A stretch of 64,000 nucleotides of DNA from Spizellomyces punctatus DAOM BR117 (lineage: Eukaryota). The stretch lies in assembly GCA_000182565.2 (NCBI GenBank), contig KQ257466.1, one strand, 5' to 3'. The notes beneath the pieces are model-generated. The model saw only the letters and a program-made list of their open reading frames with translations, was not told the origin of the DNA and searched no databases. Below are positions 4,697-19,757 of the stretch, piece by piece (within the stretch, counting starts at the first letter, position 1; every line of letters starts with the position of its first letter). The translations under genes were made by a program, and so were the position numbers.

Positions 4697-5309
4697 TACC
4701 AGATTTTTTTTTACCTTTTTTTTGGGGGGGTTGGGTTTTTTTGTTTAAATAAAAAGTTTTTGGATTATTTGTCCCGGTTTAACTTGCATATCTCCTCGTT
4801 AATGACCATGTGGGATACTCTACGTGTTGCTCTATCAATACATTTGCCACAAGCACAATGACATCTTGATCTGGATAAAACATGTACGGTATTTACTCAT
4901 CATCCCACTTAAAAGCGCTTTTATCAAATTGCGGTTTTCTGCATGAATTGTTTGATTCGTTGCTGTTCATTAAGATGGCGTTATTAGCAAGGCAATAGGG
5001 TGTGATACGAGGTTTTTTATTTTAGGTAGAGTTTGACTAAAACTGGTATGTACGGGCAGAATCGTTGCAAACATGGTCTTGATATCATCAGAAGAAATAC
5101 ATCACATTACAGGACCCAACCCGAAAGGACATACCACTATTCGCCCCACAATCCGCTGTCCCTCTCGATCCTCATGAAATCCCCCACTCGAATGCATTAA
5201 GGTATCCCTTACGTAATCCCATATCTCCACCTACACGTGCATTCGTTGACGATCTTGGGTATCGCGGGGCGGTTGTCATTTTACTCTCGACGCACCATCT
5301 ACATAAGTC

Positions 5310-8090: not shown

Positions 8091-9579
8091 TGTTTAGGCT
8101 TTCTCTCTTTTGTTTTTTTGTGGTATGTATGTATGTGCGTGTATGTCGTTGAAGAAATGCAAATGCTTGCTCTCTATCCGCACTTTACAACTCTCGAACT
8201 TTTAACACAACACAAAAACCCCAGACCTTTACTCTTATACCCAACCAATTACGCTAAAAAAACCCCCAATACAAAAAAAAAAGCACATGCCACACATCAT
8301 AACATCAACTATTTACACATGCTCTAAAAATGTTACCAAAAATATTTTCACGCATATCAAGGACCAACCCCCATCTACAATATAGTATGCAGGGGGTTAG
8401 GGATATCATTGGGATTATGTTTTTGCGGGAGGACTTTACGGAATTTTGCGCATGGTTGTGAACTTTTTGTGTCAAGTTGGCGGTTCTGGGTCCCTATCAA
8501 TCAGTCTAAAGCCCTACACTGGTGGAGGAATTTTGAAGCAAGTTTGTTGGGGTGATAGGCTTTGTTTTGTAAGAAATCCCAGTCTTGCGAACAGTTGAAG
8601 GGGCGAATATCTCAATCAATGACCTTGACCAGATACCCTGAACATTCATTTGGGAAACCAGTAAAACAGAACCTTTCGTCGCTCCAAGACAAAAATCATA
8701 CTCGCCACGCACATTACCTACCTTTCGAGCATTCTACATGTAGTAATATAGTCAAGCCTTGGTCGATAAAATATTCCAATGGATATAGTACATTATCTCG
8801 TTCCATGTCCACGCCAACTTGATCACTATCTGGCTGAGTTAAGGACAATTAAAGTGTTTGCGTGTTCTTGCCCACTGTAGCCATTGGCGTGAGGACGAGA
8901 TAAAAAGTTGCCATGTCTGGCCGTTGTTCAGCAAAATGTCCATTTCCCAACATCTTATATTTAAATCCCAAAAAAACAAAAACATCAAAAAATTGGCCCG
9001 AACGCGCAGATGTTCGCTGGTTGTCTATTCCTTTAGTTCAGGCCACACCGATTGCTGTAAGAGTAGTTTAGTCGTGAACAACGGTAGTTTGTGTGGAAAT
9101 ACTCATCGTTAAGTCCAATATAGACTTTGGAGCCGACCCCGGTTAGTTCCACATGTCAAACTTCTCAGATTAGTAGCAACTTGACATCCTACTAGATGGT
9201 TGTAATAAGATTGACTTCCAGTCAATGCATTTGAAACGAGATTTGCATCAATCTTCACCATCATGACCATATAATCCATTACCTGCCTAGTCGGACCATT
9301 GCACGGGCTGTATCTATATAAAGTTCCATTGGCAATGCCCTTAACAAAGATGAGGGTCGATACAATATTCCGAACGCGACAGATAAAGGCACGAACGATT
9401 ACGGAGCCTAGTTTTAAAGGGGAACACAGCTTTGGACCAAAGGCCAAATTTGAATGAAACGAAATATCGCTTTCTTTGAAACATTGATAGAATTTCCGGT
9501 TTGCGCTTGCTGTGTCTCAACAGACTCTTCTTTTGGAACGATAAGCACTCCCTTCCTAACGGTGACATCCAGATTTCAC

Positions 9580-15436: not shown

Positions 15437-16339
15437 CTACAAAGCCTTCCCAGTCATCGCGTCGGTGGAAGGCACCATCTTCCCATTTATATAACGATAA
15501 CTTGCACCATCTCCTACGTTATACTTGTAATAATTGTTCGTGCCAGCGACATTAATCGCCTTTCGGAAAGTAATGTTGATCCTTGGTGAAGCCGTTGCGC
15601 GCTTCGGAATGGCATGGAGCCATTCTTTCTGTGTTGTCCCTTGCATCACCAGCAGATCCCCGTCTTCCAGGACAAACTTCTCCTTCTTGGATTTATCTTC
15701 TTTGTGTTTCATCAAAAAGTCCCTCGTTCCGCCCAACGTCAGCGAGGCTATGGAGGGGTTAGGACCAAGGAAGGACTCATCATCTGCATGATAAGTGATA
15801 GAGTGGGAACCATCATGGTAATAGTTTAGGAGGGTAAAGTTGTAGGTGGCACCCGTTGCACTTTCGACATGCGCTTTGAGGATCTGAAGTGGCATGGGAA
15901 TCGGACGAGGTGGCTGTTTGTAGAATGATGCGGGAGACTTGGTTTCGTCAATTCCAAAGACAGTCGTAAATCGTGGCGTGTTGACCTGTTACGAATCTTT
16001 AGTAGATAGCCAAGAGAAATCAGCTTGCGCAGTCATCAATTCTACCTCCATTCCTCTGATCTTGTATTGCACCTTGTACCAGTTCAGTGACTCGAGACAC
16101 CACGTCATGAACTCTTTCGCCATCGATTTAGTGATAAACTGCTTAAAGTATAGCAAATCTAGTCCTGGTGACTTTTTGATAACCCTACGAAGCGCTACAT
16201 TGATTGCGGGAGATACGTCCGGTGCGTCTCTTTTGGGTAATTTTGAAGCTGGAGCCTGCGCGGACTCATCGTCTGCCTTCTCGTCGGCGGACCTGCGGCG
16301 TTTCGAAGAGGGTTGGAATAGTTCGTCGATTCTTGGCAT
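15437..16339 (-). CDS. AlkB-family 2OG-Fe(II) dioxygenase, ALKBH2/3-like (intron 15986-16045)
   Basis: TPRFT, NFTLLNYYHDGSHSITYHADDE (HxD), IASLTLG, WLHAIPK, RINITFR. Confidence 0.92.
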
Positions 16340-16709
16340 TCTAAAACGATATCACAGTTCAGGCAAGGCAGCATTGGACAGGTTTTTTAACGCTTGCGGC
16401 AAAAAGGACACTAAAGCCGCTTACGTCACGGCCTAACGATCTCGATCGCAAAGCTGCCCTGCTCAACTTGCGGATAAACAGAAAAACGAAATGCATCATG
16501 TCAAAATGAATATATTTCAGCTAATGGCTATCCCATCTCTTCTTGAGTGAGCCTGCGTACGATATCTCGAATATACAAAATTTTCTGCAATTCATCATAT
16601 ACATGTCCCGCCCTAACATTACGCGGGGTTGCTACGGGTTGCTACATATCCGACCCAAGTGTTTTCCCATCGTGCCCAGGAATACTCTCTCATCCAACGG
16701 ATCAACGGA

Positions 16710-17182
16710 TTACTTCTTTCCCATCTTCTCGTACGCGGCTTGAATGTCCCTGCAAGCCGCGGAAGCTTCGCGGCAAGACTGAGCGCAAGTCTGGCAGTGA
16801 TCGGTTTTGTGCTGCGAGAAAGACAAGAGAGATATAGCATCGTAATACCGAAATGTGGAAAACAGCAAAGACGTACACTGGCGCACATCTCAGCACAGTG
16901 GTCGCATGCTTTGGCGCAAATAGCAGCAGTCTCGCCTGCGTGCATGGAATTGACGGACATCAAGCGCATGGTAACATTACATAGTTCTGTCAAACATACA
17001 TGTCCATAAGTAAGTCACTCACACCATTGCACAGACAACGTGAATTATATACCAGCACAAGCTTTGCAATGGCCGTAACAATCCATGTTTTCTTCGATAG
17101 CGCGGTTAGCACATTCTTCGCAGGTCAGCATACATTGAGCAAGAGAGTTGGAATGCTTCATGCGGAATTTAGCGTCCATCAT
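16710..17182 (-). CDS. Csp3/DUF326-like four-helix-bundle copper-storage protein, 113 aa with 15 Cys (introns 16987-17052, 16812-16876)
   Basis: Spliced protein MMDAKFRMKHSNSLAQCMLTCEECANRAIEENMDCYGHCKACAELCNVTMRLMSVNSMHAGETAAICAKACDHCAEMCASHKTDHCQTCAQSCREASAACRDIQAAYEKMGKK has repeated CxxC/CxxxC helices. Exon lengths 130+110+102 = 342 nt give a clean frame. Confidence 0.88.
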
Positions 17183-17970: not shown

Positions 17971-18498
17971 TCTATATAAACCCCCCTCTTCTTCTTCCCT
18001 CTCGTTTCTTTATCCTTGACTCTCAAAGCATCTGCCCAACGCTCAAGTCTCAAGTCCATCATGAGAATACTGCTCTGGTGCCGAGGACCTTCCCGATGAC
18101 TACAACCAACTGGAACCAGCAACAATTACTCGGAACCAACAAAACTGCTATTATGCTGCCACATTTGTTGAGCTTGGTTGGTATCTACCAACAGCATTTC
18201 TTTTCATTCTGTCATTCATCTCGCTGACATGCAGTTTTTTATAGTCTCCAAGCCTTGTCACTGAAGATCCTCCAGCTTGCGAGTCTCCCCAATGTTGCAA
18301 AGACTCTGGCTTCAATGCCATCAAGAGTTCTGGATTACGTATTGCGTGTATAATTGTCTAGTAGTTAGTTAGCTTTTCCGAACCGGTTGTCGCTGGTTTA
18401 TTCCCTGGTGTGGAGGCACTGACATTTGTCTTTGCCAATACACTAATCTTGTCACTATTTATGCAGCGTGCACCAGAGGTGGACATTTCAAGAAATAG
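17971..18498 (+). other. Small spliced transcription unit, copy A (lncRNA, or recoded/pseudogenised small-peptide gene)
   Basis: TATA at about 17973, ATG 18061, predicted introns 18181-18244 and 18339-18466. Colinear similarity to 54013-54510(-). Confidence 0.65.
18372..18411 (+). ncRNA. Conserved structured RNA block, copy A
   Basis: GCTTTTCCGAACCGGTTGTCGCTGGTTTATTCCCTGGTGT is 39/40 identical to the reverse complement of 54068-54107. It forms the stem AACCGG/CYGGTT. Confidence 0.6.
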
Positions 18499-18637
18499 AT
18501 CAAGTATTCATTTGATAACTTTGTACACAGAAATCCCAGAACTCTCAAACTTCAAATAAACGGTCATTCTTTAAAGTATTGAATTTCCTTTCCAACTAAC
18601 ATCCATTCATTCTTTCGCTGAAAACCTTTCAGACCCT

Positions 18638-19757
18638 CTAGTTTCCAGCAACGACACCGGGTTCATGGTAAGGGTAATGGTACTGCTTTGAGAAATGGTG
18701 CCTGCGAGCCGGGTGCCTGAAGCGAGGGAGAACATCCCTGTGAGGCACGGCTTCAGTCATAACGTAGCAGGCTACACGATAGAGTGCCAGCAAGGAGGAT
18801 GCAAGCCAAAAGTACTGCATGAGGGACACTTTTAGTTGGTGATATTCAGAACGTTGGAGAGAAATAGAACTTACCCCGAGGATTTTGATAAGAGCTGTGG
18901 AGTGCAGAAACCAGCCTTTGGGATAGCAAATAAGGTTAAGAAACCATGTTTAGAATAAGAAAATTATTCATCTAGATGTTACCTAGCACACCAAAGACGG
19001 ATCCCGTCGCCAGCGTGAATAAGGTACCAGTCCAAGCAAGATCCCGGAACATGCTACGCACAAAATCGGTTAGCGTTGACATCTTTCCACACCCGATATT
19101 GACGGTAAATATGGCGCAAAACACTTACGCAGCAGCCGTCAAAACATAAGTGAAAGCCGCCAGTGGAGCCATCCAAATGCCCCAACCAGCATTGTAATCA
19201 TAGCGATCGTTAAGAGGGATTGAGCCAGCACCCATTAGACCAAGGGACAAACTGACAGCGATATAAAAGCTGCCCCACATTGTGTGGAAGATCGAAGCAA
19301 GGGTATCACGAGCACTGCATTGTGATGTACATATCAGCACCAAAAGAAGGGTATGATGCTTGAAACGAGAAGAAACTCACTTGAAAGCCCACATTCCAGC
19401 CGCGAATTGACCGAATCCGCCAAATGTCAACACAAAAGGCCAAAGCCTGAAGGGAGTCTCGGGATTCCCGTACCACTCTGTCAACCACGTCGCTACAATG
19501 AACGTTGCCGTCGCATAGCTGGCCAGGCCCATAGCCGACGGAGGAGCAATAGGCTTAAGGTGTATTCGAACAGGTGGAGGCGCATTGGGAAGGTCGTACC
19601 CTCCGCCTGTTGCGGTGCCAGGACGATCAGAAAGGGCGCCTCCTGCATCGCCTAGCGTGTATGTACTAGGGTATGTATAGTTTGTCGGGTTGTTCAAGGC
19701 TTGCGCGGGGGCGTCGCTTGGCTGACGACTCCCACGGAGGGCATTCGGGAGGTGCAT
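18638..19757 (-). CDS. GPR1/FUN34/YaaH (ADY2/SatP-like) acetate/ammonia transporter (multi-exon)
   Basis: IAPPSAMGLASYATATF, FGGFGQFAAGMWAFKARD, HTMWGSFYIA plus further TM helices across GT-AG introns. Confidence 0.88.

What the first reader, a model, noticed from the sequence alone, without database searches (positions are those of the whole stretch)
16710..17182. Intron-containing fungal homologue of bacterial Csp3 copper-storage proteins
Seen: a three-exon, 113-aa protein with 15 Cys in CxxC/CxxxC helical spacing, no signal peptide, and the H..DHCQTCAQSCR motif. The ORF track does not show it as a whole. Established: Csp/DUF326 (YhjQ) four-helix bundles store Cu(I) and are characterised in bacteria, whereas fungi typically use metallothioneins. 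Inference: a domesticated horizontal acquisition giving a non-metallothionein copper store. The spliceosomal introns argue against contamination.
Basis: partly seen in the sequence, partly recalled or inferred. Interest (0 to 1): 0.72.

Follow-up and report, generated by a model that had tools for sequence, protein, structure and literature searches.

The report
Chytrid copper-storage bundle, old eukaryotic branch
A soil chytrid fungus has a real, spliced gene for a bacterial-type copper-storage protein, and its closest look-alikes are in three other early fungal phyla and an amoeba, so it looks like part of an old, unstudied eukaryotic branch of the family rather than a one-off recent gene transfer.

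Summary
Three minus-strand exons give 113 aa with 15 Cys. RNA contigs of two runs (one study) skip both introns exactly. The product equals record SPPG_09489 of Spizellomyces punctatus, which UniRef already names a four-helix bundle copper-binding protein. The AlphaFold model (pLDDT 96.8) matches Bacillus Csp3 at Z 19.0, rmsd 1.2 A. It keeps 14 of 19 BsCsp3 cysteines and 2 of 3 mouth histidines, so it is a Csp3-type protein. Copper binding is untested.

The lineage-specific transfer story weakens. The protein groups with homologues from Blastocladiomycota, Monoblepharomycota, Glomeromycota and an amoebozoan (support 77/92 to 97/85). An AU test does not reject a separate bacterial origin (p 0.35). 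In this branch, Cys stay invariant near the bundle mouth (65 of 65 cells) and erode towards the closed end (22 of 65; other Csp3-type rows 413 of 448), which suggests a shallower copper core. [quoted passage not shown] Verdict: new variant of a known kind, interest 0.5.

The parts
17053..17182 (-). Exon 1 (codons 1-43 plus one base): helix 1, the short helix1-helix2 linker and the start of helix 2; Cys17, 21, 24, 35, 39, 42
   Evidence: RNA cover 17053-17110 in X1; start codon not covered by RNA
16987..17052 (-). Intron 1, 66 nt, GT..AG, phase 1; holds two in-frame stops
   Evidence: skipped in RNA contigs of X1 and X4
16877..16986 (-). Exon 2 (residues 44-80): rest of helix 2 and helix 3; Cys46, 67, 71, 74, 78
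   Evidence: weak TIGR04401 and DUF326 matches alone
16812..16876 (-). Intron 2, 65 nt, GT..AG, phase 0
   Evidence: skipped in RNA contigs of X1 and X4
16710..16811 (-). Exon 3 coding part (residues 81-113 and TAA): His81/His85 mouth motif and helix 4; Cys86, 89, 93, 100
   Evidence: DUF326 18.8 bits
16541..16709 (-). 3' untranslated region, at least this long
   Evidence: contiguous with exon 3 in RNA contigs of X1 (to 16541) and X2 (to 16551); contigs cannot show the true end

Best explanation
The gene encodes a cytosolic Csp3-type protein: a pre-folded four-helix bundle, probably a homotetramer, whose 15 Cys line the core and bind Cu(I) as thiolate clusters entering at the His81/His85 mouth. 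SHOWN: spliced transcript, single copy, Csp fold in the model, Cys on one face of each helix. INFERRED from BsCsp3, MtCsp3 and RkCsp3: Cu(I) binding, roughly 12-16 ions per chain (about one per Cys), and a role as a safe store that hands copper to cuproenzymes. It belongs to an old branch of the family whose named members are all eukaryotes (chytrid, blastoclad, monoblepharid, arbuscular mycorrhizal fungi, one amoebozoan). That branch most likely entered eukaryotes once, early, from bacteria and was then kept patchily. The branch keeps the ligands of the mouth-side cluster and loses those of the deep clusters, so most members should hold fewer ions than classical Csp3; the Spizellomyces protein is at the Cys-rich end. 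My odds: Csp family 0.97; binds Cu(I) in vitro 0.9; copper is its main job in the cell 0.7; shares one origin with the other eukaryotic members 0.7.
For: Fold: pLDDT 96.8, helices 4-30, 36-54, 60-79, 84-111. Foldseek best 5FIG, TM 0.84/0.93, rmsd 1.5. VIA Z 19.0, rmsd 1.2 over 99 residues; the top six rows are Csp-family chains and the next row is at 12.7. Sequence: phmmer of P0001 to 5FIG E 7e-08; Atlas 0.94, 225 of 256 features, PF03860 Csp. Cys lie on one helical face (R 0.91-0.93; p 0.057, 0.005, 0.005, 0.008 for the four helices). Tetramer model 0.84 against 0.00 for the best of 3 controls; runs agree in at least 94% of contacts, partner pLDDT at least 83; the mark was reached by 20 of 30 solved one-chain pairs and 1 of 23 single chains (eukaryotes 17 of 29, and only 1 of 7 without an older solved relative), so it may be memory of solved Csp tetramers. 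Branch: one split in 5 of 6 trees (SH-aLRT 96; 77/92; 86/92; 95/84; 97/85 with six named bacteria added). In the sixth tree (no linker, no Cys columns) the window protein joins the 11 rows that hold all five other named eukaryotes at 98/89. Layer gradient. The mouth-side cluster fills first in MtCsp3 (PMC10155185 passages). One eukaryote-type contig has a member between a ZIP transporter and an HMA-domain gene (L011). The genome has copper clients and regulators: multicopper oxidase, Cu/Zn SOD, Ctr and copper-fist matches.
Against: No metal binding, localisation or copper induction was measured. Upstream metal-response motifs (consensus recalled) are at chance level: 1, 0, 0 found against 0.61, 0.13, 0.80 expected. 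The window neighbours are not metal genes. Trees rest on 80-111 columns. AU tests reject neither grouping the window protein with its best-identity outside rows (p 0.353) nor monophyly of the five fungal rows (p 0.316). Its highest identity in the trees is to P0005 (43%), outside the branch. In the no-Cys tree two outside rows enter the 16-row group. The short linker is not unique: 16 of 106 other rows have 18 or fewer residues. The inner order does not follow species phylogeny. The model was built from an alignment that is mostly Csp3-type sequences. Local DUF326 and TIGR04401 scores are below cut-off.
Confidence: 0.6

Rival explanations
1. One reading: a separate bacteria-to-chytrid transfer in the Spizellomyces lineage, later given introns; the likeness to other eukaryotic Csps is convergence or long-branch pull.
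For: AU p 0.353 for holding it with P0005, P0008, P0062; best identity 43% to an outside row; it sits at the edge of the branch and keeps more Cys (15) than the branch median of 12; short linkers also occur outside. Earlier scan notes report other bacterial-type genes in this genome (unchecked).
Against: It shares with the branch a 17-residue linker, Ala/Ser at position 28 (17 of 17 rows; Cys in 83 of 111 outside) and Cys39 (16 of 16). It still groups with the eukaryotes when linker and Cys columns are removed (98/89) and under a mixture model (95/84, 97/85). No close bacterial donor: best plasmid matches are at most 41% identical among the 25 of 433 records listed. GC3 0.56 is like the neighbouring gene's 0.51-0.54.
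Confidence: 0.2
2. One entry from bacteria, then spread sideways among soil and freshwater microbial eukaryotes (possibly by giant viruses), rather than inheritance from a fungus-amoeba ancestor with many losses.
For: Patchy range; Phalansterium sits near the Glomeromycota rows rather than outside all fungi; two viral proteins in BFVD have a Csp-like fold, one from a Megaviridae sample (TM 0.81, rmsd 1.5, 21% identity).
Against: Fungal monophyly is not rejected (p 0.316); inner forks are mostly unsupported; the viral sequences could not be placed in the tree; no viral contig encoded a close relative (both are narrow searches).
Confidence: 0.3
3. It is a general soft-metal sink for detoxification (Cu, Ag, Cd, Zn), working like a folded metallothionein rather than a copper donor.
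For: Csp3s protect E. coli against copper toxicity (PMC5171941 and PMC10155185 passages). In L011 the neighbours are a ZIP transporter and a gene with HMA and PCA1-type HMA matches. A DUF326 paper on cadmium tolerance appeared in a search listing (PMC6727835; listing only).
Against: BsCsp3, the closest solved relative, is not needed for copper tolerance and feeds the laccase CotA (PMC9484137 passages and abstract). The genome has phytochelatin synthase matches that could cover detoxification. One neighbourhood is a single case.
Confidence: 0.25
4. It has lost metal storage and is a disulfide-stabilised helical protein, for example in the mitochondrial intermembrane space.
For: CxxC and CxxxC spacings also occur in such proteins (recalled); other branch members have lost many Cys (9-18).
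Against: The Csp fold and Cys register are kept; the invariant residues are the known ligand positions, including two mouth His; Csp Cys do not form disulfides (PMC10155185 passage).
Confidence: 0.05

Closest known systems
Bacillus subtilis Csp3 (YhjQ; PDB 5FIG, 6WKT), classical cytosolic Csp3
   Same: Fold (Z 19.0, rmsd 1.2 A); length 113 vs 108; 14 of its 19 Cys in register; His at the positions of H84 and H88 (read by eye from the alignments; numbering agrees with PMC10155185); no export signal seen.
   Different: About 29% identity; helix1-helix2 linker five residues shorter; Cys8, 12, 67 and 99 (closed end) and Cys26 (mouth) replaced; His86 is Thr; the core-mouth interface ligand Asp42 is Cys (C39); encoded by a spliced nuclear gene.
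RkCsp3 / NmCsp3 non-classical Csp3 (PDB 6ZIF, 3LMF)
   Same: Fold (Z 17.5); fewer Cys than classical Csp3 (16 vs 15 here).
   Different: RkCsp3 lacks the helix3-helix4 His motif, loses Cys at the mouth and gains a site at the closed end. The eukaryotic branch does the reverse: it keeps the mouth side and loses the closed end.
Methylosinus Csp1 (PDB 5FJD; TIGR04401), Tat-exported
   Same: Fold (Z 16.7); weak profile match (27 bits).
   Different: Far below the cut-off of 100; no twin-Arg leader; 20% identity.
Fungal copper metallothioneins (yeast Cup1; recalled)
   Same: Cytosolic Cys-rich Cu(I)-thiolate binding is the expected job.
   Different: Metallothioneins fold around the metal, whereas Csps are pre-folded rigid bundles (PMC7558416 passage); no sequence or fold relation was found.

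Membership tests
Csp family (PF03860 Csp/DUF326) | Four-helix bundle of the Csp fold | tested here: met
   four helices, Z 19.0 to 5FIG, top six rows all Csp-family chains
Csp family (PF03860 Csp/DUF326) | Many Cys facing the bundle core | tested here: met
   15 Cys, each helix's Cys within 60 degrees on the wheel; 14 align with BsCsp3 Cys.
Csp family (PF03860 Csp/DUF326) | Score over the family profile's cut-off | tested here: inconclusive
   Local 21-position PF03860.21 model: 15.8 bits vs 20.4, below cut-off, as are 5 of 5 other branch members scanned. The collection's precomputed PF03860.22 tag is on P0001 and the Atlas nearest clusters are 100% PF03860.
Csp family (PF03860 Csp/DUF326) | Homotetramer | tested here: inconclusive
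   Model passes, 0.84 vs best control 0.00, but solved Csp tetramers exist, so the pass may be from memory
Csp family (PF03860 Csp/DUF326) | Binds many Cu(I) ions with high affinity, no disulfides | not testable with these tools
   Needs anaerobic Cu(I) titration
Csp3 (cytosolic) | No export signal | tested here: inconclusive
   No hydrophobic leader or twin-Arg by inspection; helix 1 begins at residue 4; no predictor was run and the start codon is not covered by RNA
Classical Csp3 | Three-His motif in the helix3-helix4 loop | tested here: not met
   Two of three (H81, T83, H85). The middle His is also absent from most Csp3-type rows (His in 28 of 106), so this is a soft criterion.
Classical Csp3 | Cys ligands for three stacked four-copper clusters, 18-19 Cys | tested here: not met
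   15 Cys; inferred layers from the mouth read ACCC, CCCC, CCCC, CCCA, LAC, H. Layers are inferred from helix register, not from coordinates.
Csp1 (TIGR04401) | Tat signal and score over 100 bits | tested here: not met
   27 bits for P0001; no twin-Arg leader
Metallothionein | Short, unfolded apo-protein with metallothionein profile match | tested here: not met
   No such Pfam match at E up to 0.05; confident helical bundle

The most novel reading that the evidence does not exclude
Eukaryotes have a third, overlooked copper-holding system besides metallothionein and phytochelatin: a Csp branch as old as the split of fungi and amoebae, kept in early-diverging fungi including arbuscular mycorrhizal fungi. 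It has been trimmed to the mouth-side cluster and works as a small, fast copper donor to cuproenzymes, for example during spore formation as BsCsp3 does for CotA.
Probability: 0.25. Interest if true: 0.75.

Novelty: new variant of a known kind. Interest (0 to 1): 0.5.

Why it matters
The papers read describe Csps as bacterial and metallothioneins as the eukaryotic copper store. A spliced, conserved Csp branch across four fungal phyla and an amoebozoan would add a folded copper store to eukaryotic metal biology, including mycorrhizal fungi that handle plant metal supply. It also offers a natural series (9 to 18 Cys) for asking how core depth sets capacity and release rate. The surprise is tempered: a review already notes Csp3 in a few fungi and plants, and databases already name this protein and the Gigaspora one by fold.

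Tried and rejected
Contamination or chance ORF: rejected. Word-index homologue searches were nearly blind: 1 candidate each; 24 hits of 319 candidates, with no new branch member. P0021 (2441 aa, repeats) is a false hit with no profile match. Alignment-based locus searches could not run, so intron positions and synteny in the other eukaryotes stay unknown. A strict linker motif scan gave 19 metagenome loci (1 true Csp, L011), 16 prokaryote-genome loci (0 true) and 0 viral loci; the motif fits only 4 of the 17 branch rows by my reading and not the window gene, so the blanks do not show absence from prokaryotes. Metallothionein searches of the own genome were blank but so were the controls: no conclusion. 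Promoter motifs at chance level. The full 122-row bootstrap tree timed out and was replaced by 60-67 row sets. Linker lengths printed for four named bacteria were an alignment artefact; the corrected values are 22. Absence from Dikarya was not tested: only 20 of the 149 other listed hits (289 in all) were looked up. Run X3's lack of cover says nothing. The Dennison 2018 review is not held, so I cannot say which fungi it lists. No supplements were read; Figure S1 alignments of the Csp papers may bear on novelty. Earlier-finding look-ups by sequence and words were empty.

Full report
OBSERVATION. The gene is on the minus strand. Among 594 stop-free two-intron models ending at the TAA at 16710, the top-ranked has exons 17182-17053, 16986-16877 and 16811-16710, with GT..AG introns of 66 and 65 nt, and gives 113 aa with 15 Cys. 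RNA contigs of X1 and X4 (2 of 4 runs laid, one study) skip both introns at these exact places. X2, a polyA library of another study, covers exon 3 and the 3' UTR only; X3 does not cover the gene. The product is identical to P0002, record SPPG_09489 of Spizellomyces punctatus, named 'Four-helix bundle copper-binding protein' by UniRef. A 96% identical orthologue in Spizellomyces sp. 'palustris' keeps all 15 Cys. A search of the own genome returned three matches, the three exons, so it appears to be single-copy. Neighbours are ordinary: a 2OG-Fe(II) oxygenase, a kinase and a GPR1/FUN34/YaaH gene. GC3 is 0.56 against 0.51-0.54 in the oxygenase exons and 0.46 in the kinase. The start codon is not covered by RNA.

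WHAT IT IS. The orthologue's best solved relative by sequence is Bacillus subtilis Csp3 (E 7e-08). AlphaFold with a 120-row alignment gave pLDDT 96.8 and four helices. Foldseek ranks 5FIG first (TM 0.84/0.93). A search of 48,161 chains gives Z 19.0, rmsd 1.2 A over 99 residues, with Csp-family chains in the top six rows and the next row at 12.7. The Cys of each helix fall within 60 degrees on a helical wheel. Read by eye against BsCsp3, 14 of its 19 Cys are kept; Cys8, 12, 67, 99 (closed end) and Cys26 (mouth) are lost; Asp42, the ligand between core and mouth (PMC10155185 passages), is Cys39; two of three mouth His are kept. A four-copy model scores 0.84 against 0.00 for the best of 3 controls, with at least 94% contact agreement and pLDDT at least 83. 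That mark was reached by 20 of 30 solved one-chain pairs and 1 of 23 single chains, but by only 1 of 7 eukaryotic cases without an older solved relative, so it may reflect memory of Csp tetramers. Against this, the local 21-position DUF326 model gives 15.8 bits (cut-off 20.4) and TIGR04401 gives 27 (cut-off 100); the collection's newer PF03860.22 tag and the Atlas (0.94) do call it Csp.

RELATIVES. phmmer over 1.84 billion representatives found 289 hits and listed 150. By eye I picked 18 sequences with a short helix1-helix2 linker before building any tree. I looked up 20 of the 149 other listed hits: the first ten by rank, the second ten chosen (eight from the short-linker set). Five returned species names, all eukaryotes and all in that set: Paraphysoderma sedebokerense (a cluster member; Blastocladiomycota), Hyaloraphidium curvatum (Monoblepharomycota), Phalansterium solitarium (Amoebozoa), Diversispora eburnea and Gigaspora margarita (Glomeromycota). 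None returned a prokaryote name. A motif scan added one member on an AT-rich contig with a homeodomain gene, L011, lying between a ZIP transporter and an HMA-domain gene; its frame appears broken after about residue 80.

TREES. Of 177 proteins, 40 were dropped as short or unmatched and 15 as near-duplicates; in the 122-row tree the 13 short-linker rows form one branch (SH-aLRT 96). I then used 16-17 branch rows and 44 outside rows chosen to be hard (short linkers, few Cys, best scores). Results as bootstrap/SH-aLRT: 77/92 without linker columns; 86/92 with all columns; 95/84 under a mixture model; 97/85 with six named bacteria added. Without linker and Cys columns, the window protein joins the 11 rows holding all five other named eukaryotes at 98/89, but two outside rows enter the wider group. 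AU tests reject neither a placement with its best-identity outside rows (p 0.353) nor fungal monophyly (p 0.316). Ten of 17 branch rows are unnamed and the 44 outside rows are only presumed prokaryotic. So one eukaryote-rich branch is the best reading, not a proven one, and its age, root and donor are open. The best plasmid-borne bacterial matches listed are at most 41% identical (25 of 433 records shown). Two viral proteins have a Csp-like fold, one from a Megaviridae sample.

SIGNATURE OF THE BRANCH. The stretch from Cys24 to Cys42 holds 17 residues in 13 of 16 rows, against a mode of 22 outside (51 of 106; 16 of 106 have 18 or fewer). Position 28 is Ala or Ser in 17 of 17 rows and Cys in 83 of 111 outside. 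With layers inferred from helix register, counted from the mouth, Cys fill 46 of 64, 65 of 65, 49 of 65, 22 of 65, 12 of 48 and 2 of 16 cells in the branch, against 389 of 447, 376 of 448, 425 of 448, 413 of 448, 214 of 336 and 50 of 112 outside. I drew these layers after seeing the column counts, and related rows are not independent. In MtCsp3 the four-copper cluster nearest the mouth fills first, which is the part the branch keeps. RkCsp3 changes the other way, losing mouth sites.

MECHANISM. Shown: transcript, splicing, fold model, Cys register. Inferred from bacterial Csp3s (PMC10155185, PMC5171941, PMC9484137, PMC7558416; passages, plus the abstract of PMC9484137): the apo bundle is pre-folded, Cu(I) enters at the mouth, fills thiolate clusters at about one ion per Cys, and is released slowly to a partner. 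For this protein that predicts 12-16 ions per chain; for the Glomeromycota proteins far fewer. BsCsp3 is not needed for copper tolerance but supplies the spore laccase CotA, so a donor role is favoured over pure detoxification. Possible clients exist: multicopper oxidase matches at two places, Cu/Zn SOD, Ctr and two copper-fist matches over cut-off. Nothing links them to this gene, and upstream metal motifs are at chance level. The genome also has two phytochelatin synthase matches (PMC4410428 lists Spizellomyces as having one). Whether it has metallothioneins is unknown.

NOVELTY. [quoted passage not shown] Ten searches of the held library listed no paper that characterises a eukaryotic Csp or describes this branch; most subscription papers are not held and no supplements were read. 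A fungal Csp3 is therefore not new as such. The cross-phylum branch and its shallow core appear undescribed. Verdict: new variant of a known kind; interest 0.5; novel case probability 0.25, interest 0.75 if true.

Noticed in passing
L011 746-10031: Eukaryote-type contig with a branch member at 4887-5201 (+), frame apparently broken after about residue 80, near a ZIP transporter (746-1879, -), a homeodomain gene and a His-rich HMA-domain gene starting at 8775. A possible metal-handling neighbourhood.
   Followed up: partly
window 18050-18400 (+): Spliced transcript divergent from the Csp gene: an X1 loose end at 18180 continues with the letters found at about 18246. Only short frames; no Pfam match for the one tested.
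   Followed up: no
window 18528-18950 (-): RNA contig with a 60-nt intron at 18815-18874 on the minus strand; the 103-aa frame has no Pfam match. It converges on the transcript above.
   Followed up: no
window 15437-16351 (-): 2OG-Fe(II) oxygenase gene (PF13532, E 1e-28) just downstream of the Csp gene.
   Followed up: no
BFVD A0A5J6VLP3 and A0A8D9FR86: A Megaviridae environmental protein (193 aa) and a marine phage protein (116 aa) match the model at TM about 0.8, rmsd 1.5-1.6: viruses may carry Csp-fold proteins.
   Followed up: no
L043 and L044 (G000 C4, C9): Two phytochelatin synthase matches in the own genome, one without stops over the whole profile.
   Followed up: no
L045 109-588: In a Bernardetia plasmid the Csp gene lies directly before a multicopper oxidase gene, echoing the Csp3-to-laccase link.
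   Followed up: no
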